Shown here piece by piece: positions 4,024-53,172 of a stretch of DNA of 64,000 nt; within the stretch, counting starts at the first letter, position 1, and each line of letters begins with the position of its first letter. Source of the stretch: a virus; IMG/VR virus record IMGVR_UViG_3300047471_000162, positions 1 to 64,000 of that record. The stretch is one strand, 5' to 3'. A program made the position numbers and the translations under genes. The notes under the pieces were generated by a model that was given only the letters and a program-made list of their open reading frames with translations, was not told where the DNA came from and searched no databases.

Positions 4024-4578
4024 CTATCCTCCCAGGAGTTGGGATGCAGTATACCCACTACCTTGGATGGGAGTCTTTCTCTTCTTTCCGCTATACCAAG
4101 GGAGAGCCAGTCCATCGTTCTCTCTTCTTGGTACTAGGTGTATATGTAGATGGAATACTGATTGGGTCGCCGAAATTCCCTTACTTGTGATGAGATTGAA
4201 ATCTCCACCGATTTCTGCGGCTAGTTCAGAAGCTAGTTCTACTACGTCTCCCGATATAGTTGGATTTTCGGTGAAGTCGGTTATATGTCTCTTTGGAATA
4301 ACGAGTAAATGTCCCTCTACGACAGGATCAAGGGGAACGATTGCTATAGCATTCCACCAGTCTTTTACTACCGTGGCTGGTGAGTTCCCTACCACGATTC
4401 CACAGAATATACAAGGTGGCGCGATTTTTCTCTCCAATTCTTCTAGTAGCTCTTTCTTTGCTTCCAGACGGGATCTGATTACTTCTTTCCCTACGGTATA
4501 GCCCGTAGGGAGATGAGTTATCTTTATATAGACAGATCCGCTGGTATATACATCTATTCGTAGATCTTCTATCTCCAT
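4024..4578 (-). CDS. HIT-family nucleotide hydrolase with an N-terminal release-factor-like domain lacking GGQ
   Basis: CIFC...GHLLVIPKRH...HLHIHLVPR histidine triad; N-terminal DLRIDVY..SG...ITHLPTG resembles RF1/RF2 domain 3. Confidence 0.85.
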   Translation of the reverse strand: MEIEDLRIDVYTSGSVYIKITHLPTGYTVGKEVIRSRLEAKKELLEELERKIAPPCIFCGIVVGNSPATVVKDWWNAIAIVPLDPVVEGHLLVIPKRHITDFTENPTISGDVVELASELAAEIGGDFNLITSKGISATQSVFHLHIHLVPRRENDGLALPWYSGKKRKTPIQGSGYTASQLLGG

Positions 4579-4952
4579 TTGTTATAGCGCTCCAGTTCTT
4601 CTGGTAGTAGTTCGTTCTTAAATCGTTCTATCCAGCGGCGCCGGGTATTAGTACCAAAGTAGCTATAAAATTCTTCTGGTATCTTTCCCTTGATTGGTGG
4701 ATAGAGTGGATCGTAGTCCAGATTCTCTAAAAGGGTATTTTCGTCGTTACAACAACAGTAGTAACCTCCCCCAGAATATCCATCTTCTTTCTCATTGATA
4801 CAGCCACTACAACAGGGTCCATCGTGAACTTCACTCCACCAGTACTCTTTTGGATCTTTTACTACTGGTATAGATTTTGGGGTTAGCTCTCCCCAATCTC
4901 TACTTTTTAACTTAGCGATAGCATCGAAAGACTCGAAACTAATTTCTCTCAT
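4569..4952 (-). CDS. Hypothetical Cys-rich protein
   Basis: ORF track; overlaps the next gene as in an operon. Confidence 0.7.
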   Translation of the reverse strand: MREISFESFDAIAKLKSRDWGELTPKSIPVVKDPKEYWWSEVHDGPCCSGCINEKEDGYSGGGYYCCCNDENTLLENLDYDPLYPPIKGKIPEEFYSYFGTNTRRRWIERFKNELLPEELERYNKWR

Positions 4953-5391
4953 TGAGTTTATCCTCCAATTCTTTCTGAGTACTACCCTCTCCTACTACTT
5001 TTGCGTACATATCTACTGCGAAGAAGCGTACTTTGTTCTTCTTTCCTACTTCTTTAACGATTGCGCATTTTCCGAAATTTGAGAAAACCTTGAATTCTAC
5101 AGTAGTTCTTTCCACTAGGTACTCCTTATAAGTAAAAACTCCCCCACCTTAGAGATGGAGGAGTTTTAGATTTTTAGGACTCAGGAGAATGCTTGGTAGC
5201 GTATTGCTTTACGACAGACTCTTCTACGTTACGAGCTCCTACATGACCCTTGCTATTGACACATTGCCAAGTACCATCTGTAAAGGAAATTCGCCAACCG
5301 TTATAGTCATAGGGCTTAAGAGGAAAGTTTTCGTGTCCCATTTATACTCCTTCTCTCGTTGGTTGATACGTAGAGTCTAGCAATTGTGGTA

Positions 5392-5931
5392 CTACCTGTC
5401 AAGACCCGCTAGATAGGTTCTCATGATGTAATTCCAGCGAGCATCGTGAAGAGCGTTGTGATCACCCTCTAGTTGTGCTGGATAAGCAGGGTTTCCTAGT
5501 CTATGGAGTTCCTGACGTAGATCGTTGGTCCACATTGGCATATCTTCTGGTAGATCCAACATTCTTCCAAAGAGCTGACTCAGAACTACGTGATCGTATG
5601 CCGCATACCATGCCCATAGTTCTGGAATACCTTTTTCAGTACAGAATTCTCTTACTTCCTTGGCAATCTGCTCTCTGGGCTTTACATGCTTCCAGTCAGG
5701 ATGGAAGGTATCCCAGGATACTAATCCATCTGTTATCTTTACTGGGAGATAACGAAGAACATTCTTACGTAGCCAATCATTTTTAGCTGCTCTTACCATT
5801 ACTCCCATGTCATGAACTACTGCATAATACTCTTTACCGTCTTCTCGAACCATACCAATGGAGATTAACTCGATAGTTTCTCCATCATCGATAAATTCGG
5901 TATCGTAATCAATTTTCATCTGTTCTCCCAA
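5392..5931 (-). CDS. DEDDh 3'-5' exoribonuclease, RNase AS (Rv2179c)-like
   Basis: YDTEF..DG.TIELISIG, LWAWYAAYDHV, HNALHDARWN motifs. Confidence 0.85.
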   Translation of the reverse strand: MGEQMKIDYDTEFIDDGETIELISIGMVREDGKEYYAVVHDMGVMVRAAKNDWLRKNVLRYLPVKITDGLVSWDTFHPDWKHVKPREQIAKEVREFCTEKGIPELWAWYAAYDHVVLSQLFGRMLDLPEDMPMWTNDLRQELHRLGNPAYPAQLEGDHNALHDARWNYIMRTYLAGLDR

Positions 5932-6246
5932 CCCACGGGAATCTTACTGTGATCCTGTACCCAAGTGGAGTATTCCTGCTTGGTCATCTTTATATAGGTA
6001 TACAGGCGATCATTACTGCTCCCGGCATGCCAGGCGTCTATCTTGTCGTCAATAACTTCATTGAGTTCAGCTATACGATTATCGGATCTACTCACTTCTT
6101 CTCCTTATTCTCCCTTGCGATCATATATGCGTTATGAATTTCTGCCAGTTCCCAGAAGGTCAGACCGAAATAGTCTACAAAATCCCTATCCGAACCGCTG
6201 GCATGCCATTCGGCGTACATTTTATCTGCTTCTTCTACTGTATAGC

Positions 6247-6822
6247 TCACAATTTATCCCTCAAAAAGATTAGATACTCGAAATCGGGCTCGTCTAGTCC
6301 GATTCTGGGGCTTATTGGCATGATTCTAGCTGTGCCTGAGCTATTTTTAGTCAAATAGTCCAAGTCTTTCTTCATAACTTCATCATCAACCCAGATATAT
6401 GGAGTATTGGGTCGATTCTCGTTCATCCATGAAGCGATTCTCTTGGTTTTCCAGTGAAGTTTCTCTGGATTATAGGTATCTTTGTCTATCCAGTCAATGA
6501 CTGGTAACTCTGGGAGACCAATATGTGGACCGATCCACACGTTGGCATCCTCCTCCCATGTGGTAGCCCAGATGACCTCATACCCCAGAGACATGATTCT
6601 CGGCCCGTGAAGGGGGTTTAGCCAGACTTTCAGAGGCTTGGTGGCTACCCAGCCCGTTGGGGTCATCCGATGCGTCTCATAGCCCTCTGGGCGCTTCGTA
6701 GGTTTGGCCGCGTAGGGATTAAGTGGACCGTCTACATCCAATAAAATCACTGGTTTATTAGAAGCTTCCATACTTAACTCTCTCCTCGTTACACCAAGTA
6801 TGGATGGCCACCAACTTCCCAT
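6247..6822 (-). CDS. HAD-family phosphatase of the Swiss-Army-Knife RNA-repair type
   Basis: LLDVDGPLN, WATTW and WVDD motifs; start probably at MEASNK. Confidence 0.8.
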   Translation of the reverse strand: MGSWWPSILGVTRRELSMEASNKPVILLDVDGPLNPYAAKPTKRPEGYETHRMTPTGWVATKPLKVWLNPLHGPRIMSLGYEVIWATTWEEDANVWIGPHIGLPELPVIDWIDKDTYNPEKLHWKTKRIASWMNENRPNTPYIWVDDEVMKKDLDYLTKNSSGTARIMPISPRIGLDEPDFEYLIFLRDKL

Positions 6823-7210
6823 TTCTTATGGCTTGTGTGACCATCTTCTTGTCTTTTTGCCACTTTTCGATCGACATTGAACAATAAGAGCAGTTATATC
6901 CCTTGGGGATAGTCATTGTGCGCTTTAGTTGCTCTTGCCAGTCGATCGGGTAGAGTGTATCTCCCTTCATGTTATTACAGCGTTTATGTGTCAACTGAAT
7001 ATTTTCCCGGCCGTTTCCCCCACCTTGAGAGCGGGGGATAATATGGTCCCGGGAGGCTTCTTTGAGTTCTACGTATCCTCCGCACAAGGCACAGATACCT
7101 TTGAAGTCTGCGTGTATCCGTGCCAGTGGTTTAGAGTAGTAAGAACTTTGATTTCTACTCATCCGGTTACTTTCCCTTGCATTGATCCCGATATTGTGAT
7201 TCTGTACCAT
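6758..7210 (-). CDS. HNH endonuclease
   Basis: CALCG...DHIIPRSQGGGN...NIQLTHKRCNNMKG. Confidence 0.9.
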   Translation of the reverse strand: MVQNHNIGINARESNRMSRNQSSYYSKPLARIHADFKGICALCGGYVELKEASRDHIIPRSQGGGNGRENIQLTHKRCNNMKGDTLYPIDWQEQLKRTMTIPKGYNCSYCSMSIEKWQKDKKMVTQAIRNGKLVAIHTWCNEERVKYGSF

Positions 7211-15221: not shown

Positions 15222-15263
15222 CCCCATTGTCCGAGTTTTCTCGCACTAATGGGGTTTATTTTT
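15222..15263 (+). terminator. Intrinsic terminator-like hairpin after the Y-RNA array
   Basis: CCCCATT...AATGGGG followed by TTTATTTTT. Confidence 0.6.
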
Positions 15264-15298
15264 CTCTAACCATGTACCACGATAAAGGAGGCAATACA

Positions 15299-16876
15299 AT
15301 GGCTAAGTTCAATCAGGTAGTTAAGACAGGTGTACAGTCCCCTATTAAGACTACAGTTAAGACTGTAAACGCTGATGGTTTCGCAGCATTTCAGAGGGAT
15401 ACCAAGTCAGAGCTGTTCCTCCTGGCAGTATCCAACTTTGTTGGGCAGGATATGTTCTATGAGAATGCAAAGAACCGTGATGACCGTTTTGCCAAGCTCT
15501 GCCAGGCAGTAGCTGTGCAGGATTCCGACTGGTTCCGCAAGTTCGTGGGTTGGCTCCGTAATGGTGCTCAGATGCGTTCTGCGTCCATCGTAGCGGCTGC
15601 TGAGGGTGCTAAGGCACTTCTAGACGCTGGCGCGGTGAATGGCTCTCCTAGGGCCCTTGTAGCGGCTTCTATGGCACGTGCTGATGAGCCTGGTGAGTTC
15701 CTGGCATACTGGACTTCTAAGTATGGTAAGAATCTGCCTCAGTCGATTAAGAAGGGTGTTGCTGATGCGGCTAACCGTCTCTACAACGAGTACTCTCTTC
15801 TTAAGTACGATACGGATTCCAAGGGGTTCCGTTTTGCTGATGTTCTTCAGCTTAGCCACGCTAAGGCAAAGGATGCAAAGCAGAACGACCTTTTCCACTA
15901 TGCACTGAACCGTCGTTATGGTAAGGAGCACGTTATTTGGCATCACAATGCGCAAATTCCATTGAATCTTCCTATGATTGACATTCGACGTTTTATTATG
16001 GATCTTCCAGTTAATAAGCGCCGTGACTACCTGTCAAAGGCTCCTGAAGCCTTTAAGAGTGCGGGTATGACTTGGGAGGCTCTTGCAGGATGGCTTCAGG
16101 GTCCTATGGATGCTCAGGCTTGGCAGTCAGTTATTCCCAACATGGGTTATATGGCACTGCTTCGTAACCTTCGTAACTTCCAGGAAGCGGGCGTGGATAC
16201 TAAGGTATTCAAGTCTGTGCTGACTAAGCTATCCAATAAGGATGAGGTTGCAAAGTCTCGTCAGTTCCCTTTCCGATTCCTGTCTGCCTACCAGGCAAAT
16301 CTGGGTAACCTCAAGATTGCTGCGGCTCTCGAAGAGGCACTAGAGTCTTCTCTTATTAACGTTCCGGCGCTATCTGGTAAGACTTTGATCCTGGTTGACC
16401 GCTCTGGTAGCATGTTCTGGAGCAATGATGACAAGATGAACCTGACGCTTGCCGATCAGGCAGCGATCTTCGGATCCTCTTTGGCACTGCGTGCTGAGAG
16501 TGCTACACTGGTCCAGTTCGGCTCTAGCTCCTCTGAGATCAACTTCCGCAAGGGAGATTCTGTTCTCAAGTTGGTCAAGGACAGTTTCATTGGGATGGGT
16601 GGCACAGCTACAGATCGTGCTATCAAGGCGCACTTCAAGGATCATGATCGTGTTATTCTCATCACTGATGAGCAGTACAACTCTGGTCATGCTCCTTCTG
16701 TACCTAAGGGCACTCCGATGTACACGTGGAACCTTGGTGGATACCCGGCTGCTCAGGCAGAGTCCGGTAGCAACAAGAAGCACACATTCGGTGGCTTGAC
16801 TGACAAGGCATTCAGTATGATCCCTATGCTTGAGTCTGGTCAGTCTGGCGTTTGGCCTTGGGATCTGGTAGAGTAG
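15299..16876 (+). CDS. Ro60/Rsr-like TROVE-domain RNA-binding protein with C-terminal VWA domain
   Basis: FYE...RF, RADEPGE, MTWE, MGYMALLRNLRN, SRQFPFRFLSAY, LVDRSGSM (MIDAS), ITDEQ; AAGGAGG RBS places the start at 15299. Confidence 0.93.
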   Translation: MAKFNQVVKTGVQSPIKTTVKTVNADGFAAFQRDTKSELFLLAVSNFVGQDMFYENAKNRDDRFAKLCQAVAVQDSDWFRKFVGWLRNGAQMRSASIVAAAEGAKALLDAGAVNGSPRALVAASMARADEPGEFLAYWTSKYGKNLPQSIKKGVADAANRLYNEYSLLKYDTDSKGFRFADVLQLSHAKAKDAKQNDLFHYALNRRYGKEHVIWHHNAQIPLNLPMIDIRRFIMDLPVNKRRDYLSKAPEAFKSAGMTWEALAGWLQGPMDAQAWQSVIPNMGYMALLRNLRNFQEAGVDTKVFKSVLTKLSNKDEVAKSRQFPFRFLSAYQANLGNLKIAAALEEALESSLINVPALSGKTLILVDRSGSMFWSNDDKMNLTLADQAAIFGSSLALRAESATLVQFGSSSSEINFRKGDSVLKLVKDSFIGMGGTATDRAIKAHFKDHDRVILITDEQYNSGHAPSVPKGTPMYTWNLGGYPAAQAESGSNKKHTFGGLTDKAFSMIPMLESGQSGVWPWDLVE

Positions 16877-17005: not shown

Positions 17006-17079
17006 GGGCTTGTAGCTCCAATTGGAAGAGCAACTGATTTGCACTCAGTAGGTTGTCGGTTCGAGTCCGACCTGGTCCA
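17006..17079 (+). tRNA. tRNA-Ala(TGC)
   Basis: ACTGA-TTTGCAC-TCAGT; G3:U70. Confidence 0.9.
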
Positions 17080-17112
17080 CTCCTGTACAGAAAACTACAA
17101 GGAGGCAAAATA

Positions 17113-18227: not shown

Positions 18228-19136
18228 ATGTTTAATAAGCTTTTCAAGTCCAATACAATCCGAACCACTACCACAACTGTTATTGCATCTGGCAATGGTG
18301 CAGTAGCTGCTGGTGGGAGTATCACTGTTATTGGCAGCGGTAATCAGGTTGTAGGATCCGGCGCATATGGTAATGTGTTTACTACAGCTTTTAGTAACAA
18401 GGCTCTTCGTAGTGTGACTCTTCGATTTGGAGATACTACTAAGGCAGCTGTGAGTCTCAATAAGTCTGCTAGTGTGTCTCTGACTAAGAAGGTTGCCGAT
18501 TCTGTGGCATCCCTCAGTCGTGGAAAGATTATGGGTATCCGTATGGATGTTCTTGCTTTTATTGATGCATCAGGTTCTATGAACTATCTTTACAATAACA
18601 ACACTGTAGATGATGTCACTGAGCAGGGTTTGGCGCTAGCTATGACTATTGATGAGGACGGTGTTATTCCTACTGGTACCTTTGGCTCTAACTTCTCTTG
18701 GCGAGCTGATGTTACTCAGAATAACTACCAGGGTGTAGTTACCCGGGAGAATTTCTTTACAGGAGGTTCTACTAATCTTTCCGCTGCTCTCGCCTCTTTG
18801 GAGGAGGCAGCCAAGAAGGCTACTAATCCTATTTATGCCATGATCGTTACTGATGGCGCTCCGAATGATCGTGTGGATGTTGTAAAGCGCATTCGCCGCC
18901 TGTCTCAGTATCCTGTCTTTATCAAGTTCCTTGTTGTGGGCAATGATGCTCGTGCTTGGAAGTTTGTTGAGGATGACTTGAATAATATGGATAGTAGTCT
19001 GCGACTGGTGGATAATGTAAACTCCCGTAGGATCCTTAATCTTAACGAGTTGACTTCTGAGAAGTTTGCAGATCTTCTTACCGAAGAGTTGCCCGAGTGG
19101 GTTGATGCAGCTAAGGCTGCTGGTCTGCTTGTATAG
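18228..19136 (+). CDS. VWA domain protein (TerF-associated vWA-like)
   Basis: IDASGSM, GGSTN and IVTDGAP MIDAS motifs; FIKFLVVG. Confidence 0.85.
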   Translation: MFNKLFKSNTIRTTTTTVIASGNGAVAAGGSITVIGSGNQVVGSGAYGNVFTTAFSNKALRSVTLRFGDTTKAAVSLNKSASVSLTKKVADSVASLSRGKIMGIRMDVLAFIDASGSMNYLYNNNTVDDVTEQGLALAMTIDEDGVIPTGTFGSNFSWRADVTQNNYQGVVTRENFFTGGSTNLSAALASLEEAAKKATNPIYAMIVTDGAPNDRVDVVKRIRRLSQYPVFIKFLVVGNDARAWKFVEDDLNNMDSSLRLVDNVNSRRILNLNELTSEKFADLLTEELPEWVDAAKAAGLLV

Positions 19137-19283: not shown

Positions 19284-19844
19284 ATGGTGGCTCCGCCAGA
19301 GGCCATAATGATCTGGTTTTATACTTCAAGCACGGAGGTTTACTTGTCTCGTACTTATAGCCATCGTCCTCATTGGGTTAAGCTAAACGATCCTAAAACA
19401 CCTACTAAAGAACGTCATCAGCACTACGTAGTAAAGAAGGAAAAAGTAGGAGAAGAATTAGTAGAGACGTATGCATGGCGCCGAGATTTGGATATGCCAA
19501 AGCATACATATACAAGAGCTATCTACTATCGATGGACTGAGCAAGTTCCCTGTACTATTGACATTCCAGAGCATAGCTGGCAAGATCGCAGTAAGTATCC
19601 TGATAAGCTGTGCGATAAACGACTACTATTTACTGTAGGCTGTCCTTGCTGCTCTCGCCGCTACACGAAGCGCTTGACCAACGGAGCTAGACGTAGTAAG
19701 GTTAACCAAGCAATGAATAGTGCAGTACGGGATCTGGGCAAGTGGATACTTCTACCAGATGATGTTATTGCGTATGATGAAGCTTGGGATGATGTTGACA
19801 TCAATCCTGTTAGCAAGTACGATAGTCCTTATTGGTGGGACTAG
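19284..19844 (+). CDS. Hypothetical protein
   Basis: ORF; start probably TTG near 19344 after GGAGG. Confidence 0.7.
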   Translation: MVAPPEAIMIWFYTSSTEVYLSRTYSHRPHWVKLNDPKTPTKERHQHYVVKKEKVGEELVETYAWRRDLDMPKHTYTRAIYYRWTEQVPCTIDIPEHSWQDRSKYPDKLCDKRLLFTVGCPCCSRRYTKRLTNGARRSKVNQAMNSAVRDLGKWILLPDDVIAYDEAWDDVDINPVSKYDSPYWWD

Positions 19845-20207: not shown

Positions 20208-20278
20208 GCCCGCTTAGTTCAATGGGAGAACAACGGTTTTACACACCGTTTACGGGGGTTCGATTCCCTCAGTGGGTA
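20208..20278 (+). tRNA. tRNA-Val(TAC)
   Basis: ACGGT-TTTACAC-ACCGT. Confidence 0.9.
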
Positions 20279-20287
20279 CGCTTTAAT

Positions 20288-20366
20288 GGGGATCATCTGG
20301 ATTCGACTAGCTTTAAAGCCGCATGTCGGACAGGCTAGGAAGGGGGTTCAAATCCCCCGATCTCCA
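20288..20366 (+). ncRNA. Minimal tmRNA-like RNA (tRNA-like domain only)
   Basis: GGGGATC-ATCTGGATTCGAC 5' end like ssrA; G3:U70; CTAGCTT/AGGCTAG helix; T arm; GATCTCCA 3' end; no tag ORF. Confidence 0.8.
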
Positions 20367-20370
20367 CTTT

Positions 20371-20447
20371 GCTACCAGACCTAAATCACAAGGCGTGGTA
20401 ACGCTCTGCAAAAGCGTTGGTTCGGAGTTCGACTCTCCCTGGTAGCT
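20371..20447 (+). tRNA. tRNA-Cys(GCA)
   Basis: ACGCT-CTGCAAA-AGCGT; U73. Confidence 0.85.
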
Positions 20448-20451
20448 CTTT

Positions 20452-20540
20452 GGAGATGTGGCTGAGTCTGGTCTAAGGCGCTTCACTGCTAATGAAGAGA
20501 CTCCGAAAGGGGTCCGCAGGTTCAAATCCTGTCATCTCCG
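20452..20540 (+). tRNA. tRNA-Ser(GCT)
   Basis: CTTCA-CTGCTAA-TGAAG; long variable arm. Confidence 0.92.
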
Positions 20541-21499: not shown

Positions 21500-22109
21500 C
21501 TTTAAGCTCTATCTATTGATAGAGCTTTTCTTTTACCCTAAACTCGTACCACGAAGGAGTATGCATGATAGATCGAAAGTGCGACGCTGGAGGATATTGT
21601 AAGTGGAAGATTATAAGAGCTATAGATCCTTTTAGTAAGGAAGAGTTTATAGAGGTTGTCTGTAGTAAGTGCGGAGTCACTGGAGAGAAGTGAGGATAGT
21701 ATGACGGAAGACAGAGAACCTAACACTACTCGGTGCACTCCATACTTCTAGCGGCTGCACACGGGCCGCTAAGGCTGTGTCAGAGGGGCAGGGACCTAAG
21801 ACCATCACCCACCCCGTTACAACGCTCTCAGGGGCCCTTGCAGCCCCTCCTAGGGATAACGCTGAAGGTTACGTAGTCTACTTCCCCGACCTGGACTACC
21901 GTGTCAAGATCAAGTAGGGTGGGCCCCGATGATGTAACTACCATGGGTAACTAACACTAATGGCGGTCTAGCTGCTATTATCTAATCAGAAATAGCACTA
22001 GACCACTATTCTAAACTTATCTGTGACACTCACTTGGAAAACTTATGGGCCTTTTGGTTATAGGCTATTTTTCCATTTATACATAATCTAGACCATAAGT
22101 GAGTCGCAG

Positions 22110-49450: not shown

Positions 49451-52432
49451 ATGGCTGAGGAAAGCAATATCGGAGCCAGCCGCTTGCTAGGGACCAACGG
49501 TCTACAGCAGGCGGTTGATTCTTTAAGTACGCAAGTTACTAAACTCACAGAAACTGTTGGTAAAGCTGCCAACAGTTTTTCAAACATGTCCGGAGCTTCT
49601 GGTAGATCTTCCGGTGGAAGCACTACAGGTAATAATTGGAATACTACTTCCAATAGAAATAACTATTCTTCCAACGGTGGTGGGGGTTCTTTCAGCAGTA
49701 AGGTTATGAGTCTTGCTAGTACCAACGGCGGAGGAGGTAATGGTGGTGGTGGACGTTTCTCTATGTCAGGTGGTAGTGCTGCTGGGGGATCTAAGTTTGC
49801 TGGGGCTGTAGCTGTTGGTGCTGGTGTAGCTGCTGGCTTGACTAATTATGGTAATCAGAATATGTCTACCAATATGCAGATGGATATGTTTAATGCATAC
49901 TCCAATGTGGCTGGTGGTGGTAATAGTATGACCGCCAGACATATGGTATTCGATAACAATAATCTAGCCCTTGATGTCAATGATGCGGCACAGGCGGCAT
50001 ATACAAATGCCTTCACTTTTGGTAATGCGCAATTCGGTGGACAAGCTAATCCTGCTTTTCAAAGAGGTATGGCACAGACACAAGGATTTGGATACGCTAG
50101 TCCTACCTTAGGTGCCAATGCTGCTGCTCAAGCTGCACAGCAAACTTATTCCCCGCGCTCTCAGGTGATGTCTCAGGTTCTAGGACTTCGTGCACCTATC
50201 GGTCCTGGAGGAGTAAAGAACTCTATGAGCAGTATTGCTCAGTCTATTTATACTCAGACGTTTGGAAATAAGGCAGTAAGTCAAAAGGGCTTTAATGCTT
50301 CTATTTCTCAGGGTGGCTCCCTAGCTGTAAATCTACAGTATATGGGACAGCAGATGGGATGGAATCAGACAACCATTCAGGAGTATCAAAACTACCTCCA
50401 AGGGATGAACGCTGCTCAGAATAATGGTATGTCAGTTAGTCAGTATGACACTCTTAGTCAGCAGGCTTCTCAAGGAAATAAGAATGCTATCAATAAGCTA
50501 TCTCAGACTACTAGTCTTGGATCTTCTATGTTTGAGAATCAAAGAAATCTTAGTGCCTCTCGTGTAACTAGACAGAGCGATATCTTGGATACCTTAGCTC
50601 CAGCATTTGATAATGCTACGCAGAAAGTTAATGACTTCAGTAATGCACTTACCAACTTTCTAAAGACTACACATTTGGATAGCGCCGTAGGATCCGGGGG
50701 TGGTTGGGGTAGTGCCCTCTCTGGGGGCATGGGAGGGCTCTCTAGCGGCTTCGGAATGGGCTCAGGTCTCCTAACTGCTGCGCGCTTATTTAAGGGTGGT
50801 GGGGGTGGCGTTATGGGTCTTCTAGGCCGTGGCGGTGGCGGGGGTGCACTGAGTGCCGCACGCGGTATATCAGGTTTAGGCGCTGCTGGTGGGGGTGGCT
50901 TATTAGGTGGCAGCGCTATTGGTTTAGGTGCCGTGGGTACAGCCTTAGCTGGATACTTTGGATGGCAAAGCGCTACACAAAGCGGTGGAGTTGCTGATTT
51001 TATGGCCAAGCATGCTTCTGCCTTTGGAGTTTTTGGGCAAGCAGCTGGTCTAGGTCAAGGTGCACACAGATGGTATGACAAGCTAATAACTGGTAAGGAT
51101 AAGGAAAGTTTCTGGGATCTATTTGCTCCTGGCCAAGAAAAAAGAACTACAACCACTGATGGTAGAAATGGTGGAGGATCTAATGCCACCCCTGGTGGCG
51201 GAGGAGTAGGAACTTCTTCAAGTGGTGGTTCAGCTAATACAGGTACCAATGCCGCACAGATTATTAAATTTGCTGAGTCACAATTAGGTGTTCCCTATCT
51301 ATGGGGTGGAGAATCCCCCGGCAAGGGAATGGACTGTTCTGGATTAGTGCAGTGGGCTTTCGGTAAGGCTGGAGTAAAGTTACCTAGAACTTCTGAAGAG
51401 CAGCAAAAGGTAGGATCATCTGTAGCGATTAATAATACTCAGCCAGGAGATCTACTATTCGCGGGTAATCCTGCTCACCACGTAGCTATTGCTCTTGGTA
51501 ATGGGCAGCTTATTGAGGCTCCGCATTCTGGTGCTAATGTTCGTATTAGATCTTATGGTGCTTCTGAGTTTACTTCTGCATCTCGTGTGGTAAACACTAT
51601 AGGTAACACTGGTGATCTACTCAATAACAATAGCTCAGGTAATACAAATACTTTGAATAATCAGCAGAGAACATCTGGCGGTAATATTGGTGCCTATGCT
51701 GGAACTAGTGAAGCCGCTGCTATTGCTTCTGCTCTTGCGGGATCTATTGCAAGTATGCCTATCTCTTCAGGATCTAAGTCAGCTGGTGGAACTAGTGGAA
51801 CAACTCCAGTAGGCTCTAATCCACAGGGTAATGGTCAGAATGATCAAGCATCATTGCAAGCATATGCCAAGCAGTTACTATCACAGTATGGCTGGGGAGA
51901 TCAGTGGAATTCTTTTAATGCTCTTGTTATGTCTGAGTCCAGCTGGGATGTTCATGCAAAGAATTCTTCGTCTGGAGCTTATGGTTTAGCTCAAGCACTT
52001 CCTGCAAGTAAGTATGGTTCTGCTGGCAGTGACTGGCAGTCCAATGGAGATACACAGCTTCAATGGATGATGGGATATATCAAGGAACGTTATACCAATC
52101 CTAATAACGCCTGGTCATTCCACCAGAAGAATAACTGGTATGACACAGGCGCTTGGAGTATTGATAAGGATCAGAAGGCTGTAGTCCACCAGGGAGAAAT
52201 GATTATTCCGGCGCAGCAGGCAGAGACTATCCGTCAAGTGCTTTTGAATAATTCATTCAACCCAAATAATAATAAGAGTAATTCTGGGCATGGACTTGTT
52301 ATTAGTAATATATCTGTACAGATGCCTAATGGATATTCTGGCTCCGCACAAGAAGCGAAGATGACTGGTAAGATGGTCGTTGACGCTATTGTTAGTGATA
52401 CTCGAATCAAGAATTTGCAGAAGGGACAGTAA
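49451..52432 (+). CDS. Tape measure protein with NlpC/P60 and lytic transglycosylase domains
   Basis: GVPYLWGG...DCSGL...HHV; ESSW...AKN.SSGAYGLAQAL. Confidence 0.9.
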   Translation: MAEESNIGASRLLGTNGLQQAVDSLSTQVTKLTETVGKAANSFSNMSGASGRSSGGSTTGNNWNTTSNRNNYSSNGGGGSFSSKVMSLASTNGGGGNGGGGRFSMSGGSAAGGSKFAGAVAVGAGVAAGLTNYGNQNMSTNMQMDMFNAYSNVAGGGNSMTARHMVFDNNNLALDVNDAAQAAYTNAFTFGNAQFGGQANPAFQRGMAQTQGFGYASPTLGANAAAQAAQQTYSPRSQVMSQVLGLRAPIGPGGVKNSMSSIAQSIYTQTFGNKAVSQKGFNASISQGGSLAVNLQYMGQQMGWNQTTIQEYQNYLQGMNAAQNNGMSVSQYDTLSQQASQGNKNAINKLSQTTSLGSSMFENQRNLSASRVTRQSDILDTLAPAFDNATQKVNDFSNALTNFLKTTHLDSAVGSGGGWGSALSGGMGGLSSGFGMGSGLLTAARLFKGGGGGVMGLLGRGGGGGALSAARGISGLGAAGGGGLLGGSAIGLGAVGTALAGYFGWQSATQSGGVADFMAKHASAFGVFGQAAGLGQGAHRWYDKLITGKDKESFWDLFAPGQEKRTTTTDGRNGGGSNATPGGGGVGTSSSGGSANTGTNAAQIIKFAESQLGVPYLWGGESPGKGMDCSGLVQWAFGKAGVKLPRTSEEQQKVGSSVAINNTQPGDLLFAGNPAHHVAIALGNGQLIEAPHSGANVRIRSYGASEFTSASRVVNTIGNTGDLLNNNSSGNTNTLNNQQRTSGGNIGAYAGTSEAAAIASALAGSIASMPISSGSKSAGGTSGTTPVGSNPQGNGQNDQASLQAYAKQLLSQYGWGDQWNSFNALVMSESSWDVHAKNSSSGAYGLAQALPASKYGSAGSDWQSNGDTQLQWMMGYIKERYTNPNNAWSFHQKNNWYDTGAWSIDKDQKAVVHQGEMIIPAQQAETIRQVLLNNSFNPNNNKSNSGHGLVISNISVQMPNGYSGSAQEAKMTGKMVVDAIVSDTRIKNLQKGQ

Positions 52433-53172
52433 TGGGAACTACCGAACCAATCTCTGGTACATACCAGACAATCTCTGGACAGCCAGGATATGGTATTGTG
52501 CAGAACCCCCCGTTCCATCCTAATATTCTTAATATTCCACTACGACAGTTATCTACGAATTCCCCAGGTAGTTATGACTATTCCCTGTACAGAGGCTTAA
52601 TGTCCACAAGAGCTATACAGGGACCGGGTCTTCCAGCTAATCAGTACAAGGTTAATTTTCTCTATAATCCTTCTACTATTGCAGAGTCTAGATCTTTAGA
52701 TCTTAATAATCAGATCTATCCTTCCTACGCTAGAAATCCAGATGATCCTGGTCAACACAAGACAGGACTAAATGCAACAGTTTCATTTAGTCTACTGTTC
52801 GATAGAACGTATGAGCTTTGGGATAGTTCTTATGTAGGAACTGATGCAGGAACATATGGAGTCATGGTAGATGTTAATGCTTTCTATAATCTATTAAATA
52901 TTAATCAGGTTAATGTAAATTCTCCAGTCTCTTTGGCAACTAGTGAGTTTGCTGCGCAGAATAAATTCGCCTTAATAGTACAAGGAACTATGTCCGCCAT
53001 TCCTATAGATCTTTATTTTGGTTATCAGTCTGCTGGTGCTCTTAAGTACTTTGGCTACGTAACTGAATTCGATATCACATATACTCACTTCACTCAGAAG
53101 ATGGTGCCACAGAGATGTGCTATTAACGTAGGCTTCCAGGTAATGTCTGAGACATTTAACAACGTAAGTTAA
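52432..53172 (+). CDS. Tail tube initiator-like baseplate protein
   Basis: FLYNP.TI...L.FDRT...G.V....ITYTHF...MVP.R. Confidence 0.65.
   Translation: MGTTEPISGTYQTISGQPGYGIVQNPPFHPNILNIPLRQLSTNSPGSYDYSLYRGLMSTRAIQGPGLPANQYKVNFLYNPSTIAESRSLDLNNQIYPSYARNPDDPGQHKTGLNATVSFSLLFDRTYELWDSSYVGTDAGTYGVMVDVNAFYNLLNINQVNVNSPVSLATSEFAAQNKFALIVQGTMSAIPIDLYFGYQSAGALKYFGYVTEFDITYTHFTQKMVPQRCAINVGFQVMSETFNNVS

What the first reader, a model, noticed from the sequence alone, without database searches (positions are those of the whole stretch)
20288..20366. Mini-tmRNA: tRNA-like domain with the whole mRNA-like domain missing
Seen: the 5' end GGGGATC-ATCTGGATTCGAC has the ssrA pattern with no D stem. There is a G3:U70 pair, an A discriminator, a CTAGCTT/AGGCTAG helix capped by a short insert containing GCATGTCGG, a GAA linker and a canonical T arm. 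Total length is about 79 nt, with no resume codon, tag ORF or pseudoknots. Established: the tmRNA tRNA-like domain binds SmpB and is alanylated through G3:U70. Inference: it could sequester SmpB and block tagging and degradation of phage proteins, or rescue ribosomes without tagging, or be half of a two-piece tmRNA whose coding piece lies elsewhere.
Basis: partly seen in the sequence, partly recalled or inferred. Interest (0 to 1): 0.85.

Follow-up and report, generated by a model that had tools for sequence, protein, structure and literature searches.

The report
Phage tag-less mini-tmRNA (DS6A type)
A Streptomyces-type phage carries, in a slot of its tRNA gene array, a real 79-base gene for only the alanine-accepting tRNA-like end of the bacterial ribosome-rescue RNA (tmRNA). 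One such phage RNA was already published, so this is a further member of a large, mostly unannotated phage family that probably interferes with the host's rescue-and-tagging of stalled ribosomes.

Summary
Window 20288-20366 (+) is a 79-nt tmRNA tRNA-like domain (TLD) with no message domain. Rfam tmRNA scores 59.2 bits (cut-off 47), with 306 model positions replaced by 14 nt.

It is not new in kind. Mycobacteriophage DS6A has a published 'TLD only' tmRNA with the same architecture, and the SmpB-titration idea is also published (PMC4131195, PMC11915505). This scan has noted the family before on other DNA (e1-5949289, e1-3408686).

What I add:
- The window phage is a BRock-like Streptomyces phage.
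- The gene sits at the same place, after tRNA-Val(tac), in BRock, LuckySocke and, diverged, in cluster BE1 phages. It is unannotated in all of them.
- At least 119 distinct relatives occur in viral contigs and 11 in bacterial assemblies.
- Covariation is strong.
- G3:U70 and A73 stay invariant while neighbouring pairs covary, which argues for selection on alanine charging.
- None of 50 mini-bearing viral records has a full tmRNA or SmpB.

No coding piece exists in this complete genome, so the two-piece reading is rejected. The function is untested. The best guess is an alanine-charged competitor for host SmpB and stalled ribosomes that uncouples rescue from ssrA tagging.

The parts
20288..20366 (+). 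Mini-tmRNA gene (TLD-only, 79 nt, CCA not encoded)
   Evidence: Rfam RF00023 59.2 bits, end to end with the message domain deleted. Family model R1 54.5 bits. The minimum-free-energy fold gives the expected three helices.
20288..20294 (+). Acceptor stem, 5' strand (GGGGAUC). G3 at 20290 pairs with U70 at 20363
   Evidence: Direct reading. G3:U70 is invariant in 35/35 distinct relatives while pairs 4:69 to 7:66 covary.
20295..20306 (+). D-loop analogue AUCUGGAUUCGA without a D stem (tmRNA signature GGAUUCGAC runs to 20307)
   Evidence: Aligned to tmRNA model positions 8-20. GG..U.G.C is >=90% conserved in 73 relatives, most retrieved by patterns that did not specify this motif (A1 also holds about 15 from the scan, which did).
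20307..20338 (+). Helix P2 (CUAGCUU / AGGCUAG) capped by the insert UAAAG-CCG-CAUGU-CGG-AC
   Evidence: Fold. All 7 P2 pairs show changes on both sides across relatives. The apical motif AAAGCCGCAYGYGG is shared with DS6A, BRock and LuckySocke.
20339..20341 (+). Linker GAA (G20338-GAA is the variant of the tmRNA 'GGAC' element before the T arm)
   Evidence: alignment. GGAC is the consensus in the family; GGAA is also seen in several relatives.
20342..20358 (+). T arm GGGGG-UUCAAAU-CCCCC
   Evidence: The T stem is 100% paired, with double changes in 4 of 5 pairs across relatives.
20359..20366 (+). Acceptor stem, 3' strand GAUCUCC plus discriminator A73
   Evidence: The discriminator is A in 85/89 sequences retrieved without any constraint on the acceptor.
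20208..20279 (+). tRNA-Val(tac), 8 nt upstream. It is the conserved left neighbour of the mini-tmRNA
   Evidence: ARAGORN and Rfam. The same neighbour is found in BRock, LuckySocke, Jay2Jay and Warpy.
20371..20447 (+). Atypical tRNA-Cys(GCA)-like gene 4 nt downstream (right neighbour), followed 4 nt later by tRNA-Ser(gct) at 20452
   Evidence: Cloverleaf fold with anticodon loop CUGCAAA, z -3.0. Rfam tRNA gives only 15.6 bits and ARAGORN gives no call. BRock annotates tRNA-Cys(gca) at the syntenic spot.
19795..19823 (+). Promoter-like site upstream of this block of the tRNA array (consensus match only)
   Evidence: TTGACA-17-TACGAT, 10/12.
21504..21527 (+). Terminator-like hairpin directly after the last tRNA of the array (consensus match only)
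   Evidence: 10-bp stem followed by a T-rich run (7 T in the 10 bases shown).

Best explanation
This is a functional phage gene for a tag-less mini-tmRNA of the DS6A type. It consists of the tRNA-like domain of tmRNA alone.

Proposed mechanism:
1. It is transcribed as one unit of the phage tRNA operon and trimmed like a tRNA: RNase P at the 5' end, 3' trimming, then CCA addition.
2. Host AlaRS charges it with alanine through G3:U70 and A73.
3. Host SmpB binds it, because the phage has no SmpB of its own.
4. As Ala-TLD-SmpB-EF-Tu it competes with host tmRNA for SmpB and for the empty A site of stalled ribosomes. Phage (and host) nascent chains are then no longer given the ssrA degradation tag.

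The phage is AT-rich (45.7% GC) and infects a host of about 70% GC. It also carries 30 tRNAs and RNA-repair genes. Stalling and mRNA or tRNA damage are therefore expected to be frequent.

What is shown: sequence identity with the tmRNA TLD, conservation, covariation, invariance of the alanine identity elements, and absence of a message part and of SmpB.

What is inferred: expression, charging, SmpB binding and the effect on tagging.
For: Identity:
- Rfam tmRNA 59.2 bits, with only the TLD aligned.
- Same architecture as the published DS6A 'TLD only' tmRNA, which I located at JN698994:28478-28557.
- Family model R1 separates minis (51-94 bits) from tRNAs (<=31 bits).

Selection:
- Across 35 distinct relatives, 95.7% of cells are paired against 67.3% in shuffles.
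- 18 of 22 pairs change on both sides.
- The covariation score is 0.657, against 0.134 in shuffles and <=0.12 with slid partners.

Synteny:
- The gene sits after tRNA-Val(tac) in BRock (88.5 bits), LuckySocke (93.8), G001, and Jay2Jay/Warpy (52/51). All three stems show compensated differences.

Charging under selection:
- G3:U70 is 35/35 invariant while 4:69 to 7:66 covary.
- In a retrieval that put no constraint on the acceptor, 83/89 have G:U and 85/89 have A73. Most exceptions are mis-registered or are tRNAs.

Dependence on the host:
- The own genome has no SmpB, Pth or RF-1/ArfB domain.
- 0/50 mini-bearing viral records have SmpB or a full tmRNA; 22 of the 50 are complete.

Literature:
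- A TLD-like molecule strongly inhibits tmRNA in E. coli, perhaps by titrating SmpB (Mao 2009, as cited in PMC4131195; PMC11915505).
- TLD plus SmpB enters ribosomes and supports template-free polyalanine synthesis in vitro (Shimizu and Ueda 2006, as cited in PMC3929946).

Context:
- tRNA-slot packing with 8-nt and 4-nt spacers.
- Low codon adaptation of BRock-type phages (PMC7453282).
Against: - There are no expression data.
- No binding or charging test is possible with these tools.
- According to PMC4131195, the inhibitory effect in E. coli did not need chargeability. The invariance of G3:U70 is therefore not explained by a pure SmpB sponge and fits an active ribosomal role at least as well.
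- Blocking rescue could hurt the phage, since some phages need trans-translation (my knowledge).
- Cluster BE1 relatives keep a full tmRNA with a canonical tag ANSNVAFALAA beside a diverged mini. That is odd if the mini's only role is to block tagging.
- The window copy has GGAA instead of the consensus GGAC before the T arm.
- The family was retrieved by sequence patterns, and the covariation alignment was fitted to the model. Both inflate apparent conservation.
Confidence: 0.5

Rival explanations
1. Tag-less (or oligo-alanine) rescuer. Ala-mini-tmRNA with host SmpB productively frees stalled ribosomes. It accepts the nascent chain and the chain is then released, by drop-off with Pth, by ArfB, or after further Ala-TLD rounds. 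This adds rescue capacity without marking phage proteins for ClpXP.
For: - G3:U70 and A73 are invariant while neighbouring pairs covary, which argues that charging matters.
- TLD-SmpB supports peptidyl transfer, translocation and template-free polyalanine synthesis in vitro (PMC3929946, citing Shimizu and Ueda 2006).
- CDS-less tmRNAs persist together with SmpB in jakobid mitochondria and some plastids (PMC11915505).
- Mini-bearing phages never carry a full tmRNA.
Against: - No stop codon means no normal termination, and the phage encodes no Pth or RF-1/ArfB domain.
- An oligo-Ala tail may itself be a degron (my knowledge).
- The DS6A-like RNA inhibited rather than replaced tmRNA in E. coli (PMC11915505, PMC4131195).
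Confidence: 0.25
2. Pure SmpB sponge. The uncharged RNA merely sequesters SmpB (and perhaps AlaRS), destabilising host tmRNA and shutting down trans-translation as part of host takeover.
For: - This is the published suggestion for DS6A, where inhibition was independent of chargeability (PMC4131195).
- No mini-bearing phage encodes SmpB.
- The core SmpB-side elements are conserved: the GG..UCGAC motif, helix P2a and the GGAC element.
Against: A sponge has no need for G3:U70, A73 or a perfect 7-bp acceptor. Yet these are the most invariant features, while the rest of the stem drifts by compensated changes.
Confidence: 0.12
3. Half of a two-piece tmRNA whose tag-coding piece is encoded elsewhere in the phage or taken from the host.
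For: Earlier notes of this scan report phages with separate TLD and tag-coding genes on other DNA (e1-5796428, unchecked).
Against: - The complete 112.9-kb genome has no match to the message part of RF00023 even at E<=10, and no RF04321 match above 13 bits.
- ARAGORN finds no tmRNA at its default thresholds.
- A six-frame scan for short frames ending in xAA-stop gives 7 hits. The two most tag-like ones that I placed lie where longer ORFs are called.
- Gene order is standard, not permuted, and P2 is closed by a hairpin, so no free strand remains to pair with a partner.
- 22 complete mini-bearing phage genomes have no second tmRNA-like piece.
Confidence: 0.03
4. Non-functional relic of a full phage tmRNA, or of a tRNA-Ala, left by an internal deletion.
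For: - Cluster BE1 relatives have a full tmRNA elsewhere and a sequence-degenerate mini at this site: only 33 bits to Rfam, with the D-loop motif lost.
Against: - Compensatory changes are present in all helices.
- The site is kept syntenic across phages that share no nucleotide similarity beyond tRNAs.
- There are over 119 distinct family members.
Confidence: 0.03
5. Decoy for a host defence that senses or cleaves tRNA or tmRNA. Examples are anticodon-nuclease-type systems or systems with SmpB-like domains. In this reading it belongs to the phage RNA-repair and Ro60 module rather than acting on translation.
For: - The array is flanked by HIT, RNase AS-like, HAD_SAK_2, Ro60/TROVE and vWA-TerF genes.
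- CoCoNuT defence systems carry SmpB-like domains (PMC11090510).
Against: - Most family members are not beside tRNAs. Only 36 of 156 loci have a tRNA within 300 nt, and the median tRNA count per locus is 0.
- DS6A lacks such a module around its copy.
- The alanine identity elements would be unnecessary for a decoy.
Confidence: 0.05

Closest known systems
'TLD only' (CDS-less) tmRNA of Mycobacterium phage DS6A (tmRNA Website tmID 11587 / Phage__Mycobacterium.9; Hudson, Lau, Williams 2014, PMC4131195; PMC11915505)
   Same: - Length 79 vs 80 nt.
- Acceptor with G3:U70 and A73.
- D-loop analogue ending in UCGAC.
- P2 helix capped by the AAA(A/G)CCGCAYGYGG hairpin.
- T arm.
- CCA not encoded.
- No SmpB gene in the window's genome (DS6A's was not searched).
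- Both match one family model: 54.5 and 64.3 bits.
   Different: - Host genus: Streptomyces-type instead of Mycobacterium.
- Virulent-type 113-kb phage instead of a 60-kb temperate phage.
- Sits in a tRNA slot of a 30-tRNA array, whereas the DS6A copy stands alone between protein genes.
- GGAA instead of the GCAC/GGAC element.
- Stems differ throughout by compensated changes.
Canonical one-piece tmRNA (SsrA, Rfam RF00023), e.g. the full tmRNA of Streptomyces phage Jay2Jay (KM652554:97949-98233, tag ANSNVAFALAA)
   Same: The 5' 28 and 3' 40 model positions: acceptor, D-loop analogue, start of helix 2, GGAC-like element and T arm.
   Different: About 306 model positions are absent, including the resume codon, the tag frame and all pseudoknots.
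CDS-less organellar tmRNAs (jakobid mitochondria; about 65-nt plastid forms of Mallomonadaceae; PMC11915505)
   Same: A tRNA-like domain only, with alanine identity, thought to work with SmpB.
   Different: They are cellular or organellar genes that replace the only tmRNA of that compartment. Here a virus adds the RNA on top of a host that has a full tmRNA, so competition rather than replacement is expected.
Engineered TLD fragments used for SmpB co-crystals and in vitro trans-translation (T. thermophilus TLD, PDB 2CZJ: 5' 25 nt + UUCG + 3' 34 nt; PMC3929946)
   Same: The same boundaries. Short natural relatives of 62-63 nt (e.g. L034, L042) are P2a capped by a tetraloop. Such fragments bind SmpB, are alanylated and enter ribosomes in vitro.
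   Different: The window's is a natural gene, with an extra conserved apical hairpin in its subclass. Its biochemical behaviour is untested.

Membership tests
TLD-only (CDS-less) tmRNA, DS6A type | 7-bp acceptor stem with G3:U70 and discriminator A73 (alanine identity) | tested here: met
   GGGGAUC/GAUCUCC plus A, read directly. The same elements are found in 35/35 distinct relatives.
TLD-only (CDS-less) tmRNA, DS6A type | tmRNA-type D-loop analogue (GGAUUCGAC) with no D stem, and a T arm with a GGUUCRAnUCC loop region | tested here: met
   Aligned to RF00023 positions 8-20 and 346-363.
TLD-only (CDS-less) tmRNA, DS6A type | Helix 2a closed directly by a short cap; total length about 60-90 nt; no resume codon, tag frame or pseudoknot | tested here: met
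   306 model positions are replaced by 14 nt. The fold shows a closed hairpin.
TLD-only (CDS-less) tmRNA, DS6A type | Matches a covariance model of the family better than any tRNA does | tested here: met
   R1: window 54.5, DS6A 64.3, best tRNA 25-31 bits.
TLD-only (CDS-less) tmRNA, DS6A type | Alanylation by AlaRS, binding of SmpB and EF-Tu | not testable with these tools
   Inferred only, from conserved identity elements and from in vitro work on engineered TLDs (PMC3929946).
Canonical one-piece tmRNA (SsrA) | mRNA-like domain with resume codon and tag reading frame ending in a stop | tested here: not met
   Only 18 nt lie between the two strands of P2. ARAGORN calls no tmRNA.
Canonical one-piece tmRNA (SsrA) | Pseudoknots PK1-PK4 / helix 5 ring | tested here: not met
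   Model positions 29-334 are absent.
Two-piece (circularly permuted) tmRNA (RF04321, RF01849-51) | Permuted gene order, with the acceptor 3' piece upstream of the coding piece, and a separate coding RNA | tested here: not met
   Standard order and a closed hairpin. The RF04321 best score in the genome is 13.2 bits, against a cut-off of 47. There is no message-part hit at E<=10.
tRNA-Ala | Cloverleaf with D arm and anticodon arm | tested here: not met
   Rfam tRNA 19.8 bits (<29) and no ARAGORN call. The genuine tRNA-Ala(tgc) is at 17006-17080.
Ro60-associated Y RNA (YrlA) | Ro-binding stem formed by the 5' and 3' ends, flanking a tRNA-like module next to the Ro60 gene | tested here: not met
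   No Y RNA family reaches its gathering score in the window. The mini has 8-nt and 4-nt spacers to neighbouring tRNAs, which leaves no room for a flanking stem. The Ro60 gene lies 3.4 kb away.

The most novel reading that the evidence does not exclude
The family is not a passive sponge but an alanine-charged, SmpB-dependent 'tag-free rescue' RNA. Many unrelated phages would use it to reprogramme what happens at stalled ribosomes: the nascent chain receives one or a few alanines and the ribosome is freed (or deliberately jammed) without the ssrA tag. The family-wide invariance of G3:U70 and A73, the lack of any phage SmpB, and the in vitro competence of TLD-SmpB are all compatible with this.
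Probability: 0.25. Interest if true: 0.8.

Novelty: new member of a known kind. Interest (0 to 1): 0.5.

Why it matters
Trans-translation is the main ribosome-rescue and protein-tagging pathway of bacteria and a drug target. A natural, widespread viral RNA that consists of just the SmpB- and AlaRS-binding end of tmRNA would be a ready-made probe and antagonist of that pathway.

The published record names a single phage example (DS6A). This work shows that the gene is present but unannotated in cultured Streptomyces phages: BRock, LuckySocke and the BE1 cluster. The open question of sponge versus charged competitor versus tag-less rescuer can therefore be tested directly in a laboratory phage-host pair.

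It also matters for annotation. ARAGORN misses these genes, or extends them into bogus 'tmRNAs' with meaningless tags.

Tried and rejected
- **Two-piece tmRNA.** I searched the whole genome with RF00023 (E<=10), RF04321 and ARAGORN. At lowered thresholds ARAGORN gives only junk calls. A six-frame scan for short frames ending in xAA-stop gave 7 hits; the two most tag-like (APSLMLAA at 1085-1111, PSGRFVGLAA at 6683-6715) lie where longer ORFs are called. Rejected.
- **ARAGORN 'tmRNA' calls overlapping minis in L022, L165, L187 and L281.** These have poor 5' domains and 'tag not identified', and the mini's own 5' strand lies adjacent. They are spurious extensions.
- **Jay2Jay second small hit (KM652554:92456-92531).** This is simply tRNA-Ala(GGC).
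- **Adjacent antisense partner RNA,** a lead from earlier notes on Patescibacteria. None lies within 3 kb. The only long complement is a 14-mer at 52735-52748 inside a 246-aa ORF.
- **Phage-encoded helpers.** No SmpB, Pth or RF-1/ArfB domain in the genome.
- **attP remnant of integration into ssrA.** Both halves of the TLD are present, and the closest cultured relative BRock is reported as virulent with no lysogeny genes (PMC7453282); I ran no integrase search on this genome. DS6A integrates at tRNA-Lys (PMC10865867). Rejected.
- **Mao et al. 2009.** The paper is not held, so it is cited only through PMC4131195 and PMC11915505.
- **First MAFFT alignment (A1).** It mis-registered the 5' acceptor because of linker-length variation. 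I therefore built the model from a length-homogeneous subset (A2) and counted acceptor pairs by direct parsing.

Full report
**1. The observation.** Window 20288-20366 (+) reads as follows:

| Element | Sequence |
|---|---|
| Acceptor 5' strand | GGGGAUC |
| D-loop analogue | AUCUGGAUUCGA |
| P2 5' strand | CUAGCUU |
| Apical insert | UAAAG CCG CAUGU CGG AC |
| P2 3' strand | AGGCUAG |
| Linker | GAA |
| T arm | GGGGG UUCAAAU CCCCC |
| Acceptor 3' strand | GAUCUCC |
| Discriminator | A |

This gives a 7-bp acceptor stem with G3:U70, discriminator A73, a tmRNA-type D-loop analogue with no D stem, one closed helix (P2), and a canonical T arm. CUU follows instead of CCA.
- Rfam's tmRNA model RF00023 matches 20288-20369 end to end at 59.2 bits (gathering 47). 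It aligns model positions 1-28 and 335-374 and replaces the 306 positions between them by 14 nt.
- Read as a tRNA it scores 19.8 bits (cut-off 29), and ARAGORN calls nothing there.

**2. Where it sits.** The window is the first 64 kb of a 112,903-bp viral record that CheckV rates complete.
- The gene occupies a tRNA slot in a 30-tRNA array. The local order is tRNA-Val(tac), 8 nt, mini, 4 nt, an atypical tRNA-Cys(GCA)-like gene (20371-20447), 4 nt, tRNA-Ser(gct).
- A promoter-like site (19795-19823) and a terminator-like hairpin right after the last tRNA (21504-21527) bracket this block. These are consensus matches only.
- Genes in and beside the array include a HIT protein, an RNase AS-like 3'-5' exoribonuclease, a HAD_SAK_2 RNA-repair phosphatase, a Ro60/TROVE protein and a vWA-TerF-like protein.
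- The phage is a distant relative of the virulent Streptomyces myovirus BRock and of LuckySocke, Alone3, GiJojo and pSt2308. Their Ro60 proteins are 60-64% identical to the window's, and BRock and LuckySocke, whose arrays I read, have the same tRNA order.
- BRock-type phages have 52% GC against about 70% in their hosts, and low codon adaptation (PMC7453282). The window genome has 45.7% GC.

**3. It is a conserved gene, not a relic.**
- I built a covariance model (R1) from 25 viral relatives that exclude this lineage.

| Sequence | R1 score (bits) |
|---|---|
| Window | 54.5 |
| G001 (metagenomic sibling) | 61.8 |
| G002 (metagenomic sibling) | 66.3 |
| BRock | 88.5 |
| LuckySocke | 93.8 |
| Jay2Jay (cluster BE1) | 52.2 |
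| Warpy (cluster BE1) | 51 |
| DS6A | 64.3 |
| Best true tRNA | 25-31 |

- In BRock (KX925554:97143-97220) and LuckySocke (OR725497:17977-18054) the gene lies in an unannotated gap right after tRNA-Val(tac). This is the same site as in the window and in Jay2Jay/Warpy.
- Between these orthologues all three stems differ by compensated changes. The acceptor, for example, is GGGGAUC/GAUCUCC in the window and GGGUUUG/CAAAUCC in BRock, and the T stem is GGGGG/CCCCC against GUGGG/CCCAC.
- On 35 distinct sequences, 95.7% of cells form standard pairs (67.3% in shuffles; at most 53% with slid partners). 18 of 22 pairs change on both sides. The covariation score is 0.657 against 0.134.
- Caveat: that alignment was fitted to the model, and the sequences were retrieved by sequence patterns.

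**4. Breadth of the family.** One scan of species-representative bacterial assemblies, also capped, gave 11 more. These came from Actinomycetota, Patescibacteria, a Sideroxyarcus MAG and a Phycisphaerales MAG.
- Two subclasses are visible. A short one (62-69 nt) has P2a capped by a small loop, much like the engineered TLD used for SmpB co-crystals (PMC3929946). A long one (76-82 nt) has the apical motif AAAGCCGCAYGCGGA. The window, DS6A, BRock and LuckySocke belong to the long subclass.
- Only 36 of 156 loci have a tRNA within 300 nt. The tRNA-array setting is therefore a feature of this lineage and not of the family.

**5. What the genomes lack.**
- The window's genome has no other match to any part of the tmRNA model even at E<=10, no permuted-tmRNA match, and no credible short tag frame.
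- It has no SmpB, Pth or RF-1/ArfB domain.
- Among 50 mini-bearing viral records, 22 of them at least 90% complete, none has a full-length tmRNA; every hit is 62-92 nt. None has SmpB.
- Cluster BE1 phages are the exception. They carry a full 285-nt tmRNA with the canonical tag ANSNVAFALAA about 10 kb downstream. Their syntenic mini has lost the D-loop motif and part of the apical motif, while keeping G3:U70, A73, P2 and the T arm.

**6. Alanine identity is under selection.**
- In the covariation set, pairs 1:72, 2:71 and 3:70 are invariant (G:C, G:C, G:U in 35/35). Pairs 4:69 to 7:66 show four pair types each.
- In a retrieval that put no constraint on the acceptor end, 83 of 89 sequences have G3:U70 and 85 of 89 have A73. 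Most of the exceptions are my own mis-registrations or ordinary tRNAs. One (L275) appears to have G3:C70.
- A wobble pair that never drifts to G:C or A:U, inside a stem that otherwise drifts freely, indicates selection for AlaRS recognition. This inference rests on the established role of G3:U70.

**7. Mechanism.**
- Shown: homology to the tmRNA TLD, purifying selection on structure and on alanine identity, and absence of a message part and of phage SmpB.
- Inferred: the RNA is processed like a tRNA from the array transcript, receives CCA, is alanylated by host AlaRS and is bound by host SmpB.
- Literature: a TLD-like RNA strongly inhibits tmRNA in E. coli, perhaps by titrating SmpB (Mao 2009 via PMC4131195; PMC11915505). 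TLD-SmpB can enter ribosomes, accept the peptide and even drive template-free polyalanine synthesis in vitro (PMC3929946).
- Productive tag-less rescue (0.25) and a pure sponge (0.12) are the main rivals.
- The rationale for this phage is that AT-rich codons in a high-GC host, and host attack on tRNA or mRNA, should cause many stalls. The 30 tRNAs and the RNA-repair and Ro60 genes point the same way. This is plausible but unproven.

**8. Comparison with what is known.**
- The closest known object is the 'TLD only' tmRNA of mycobacteriophage DS6A (PMC4131195, PMC11915505). I located it at JN698994:28478-28557. It shares length, architecture and the apical motif with the window's gene.
- CDS-less tmRNAs are also known from jakobid mitochondria and two plastids (PMC11915505).
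- In the library I could search, I found no paper describing the family's breadth in phages or its presence in Streptomyces phages.
- Earlier agents of this scan reached the same reading on other DNA (e1-5949289, e1-3408686, e1-5885165).

**Verdict.** This is a real gene and a new member of a known kind. The two-piece and relic readings are rejected. The function remains open but is now directly testable in cultured phages.

Noticed in passing
window 20371-20447 (+): A likely atypical tRNA-Cys(GCA). It has a 7-bp acceptor, anticodon loop CUGCAAA, a weak 3-bp D stem and a 4-bp T stem. ARAGORN misses it, and Rfam tRNA gives only 15.6 bits. It would supply the one amino acid missing from the 30 called tRNAs. 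BRock annotates tRNA-Cys(gca) at the syntenic place.
   Followed up: partly
window 15227-16876 (+): A Ro60 orthologue (TROVE domain, E 3e-16, with a weak vWA match in its C-terminal part) lies inside the tRNA array. It is 60-64% identical to 'Ro-like RNA binding protein' of BRock, LuckySocke, GiJojo and pSt2308. No Y RNA family reached Rfam's gathering score in the window.
   Followed up: partly
window 4024-7210 (-) and 18228-19136 (+): RNA-metabolism genes flank the array: a HIT-domain protein (with an unassigned 55-aa N-terminus), an Rv2179c/RNase AS-like 3'-5' exoribonuclease, a HAD_SAK_2 'Swiss army knife' RNA-repair phosphatase, an HNH endonuclease and a vWA-TerF-like protein.
   Followed up: partly
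KM652554.1 97949-98233 and 87505-87581 (L010, L012): Cluster BE1 Streptomyces phages carry both a full tmRNA (tag ANSNVAFALAA) and, 10 kb upstream, an unannotated diverged mini-tmRNA after tRNA-Val. The published 'one tmRNA' count refers to the full one only. It is unexplained why both are kept.
   Followed up: partly
L022, L165, L187, L281 (IMG/VR loci): ARAGORN extends some mini-tmRNAs into 320-630-nt 'tmRNA' calls with a poor 5' domain and meaningless tags ('Tag not identified'). This is a possible source of wrong tmRNA annotations in phage genomes.
   Followed up: yes
window 52735-52748 (+): A 14-nt stretch (AATCCAGATGATCC) is perfectly complementary to positions 3-16 of the mini-tmRNA. 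It lies inside a 246-aa ORF (52432-53172). About 0.03-0.06 such matches are expected by chance. Conservation in relatives was not checked.
   Followed up: no
L320, L342 (Patescibacteria MAG contigs); L355 (Pseudonocardia sp.); L287 (Microlunatus speluncae): Long-class mini-tmRNAs (52-86 bits to R1) also occur in bacterial assemblies. I did not determine whether they lie in prophages. Earlier notes of the scan report antisense partner RNAs beside such genes in Patescibacteria.
   Followed up: no
KM652554.1 9879-10081 and 131972-132174 (-), in the terminal repeat: A weak local match (12.3 bits, E 4e-4) to the message part (positions 56-294) of the tmRNA model in Jay2Jay, and a shorter one in Warpy. 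It may be chance.
   Followed up: no
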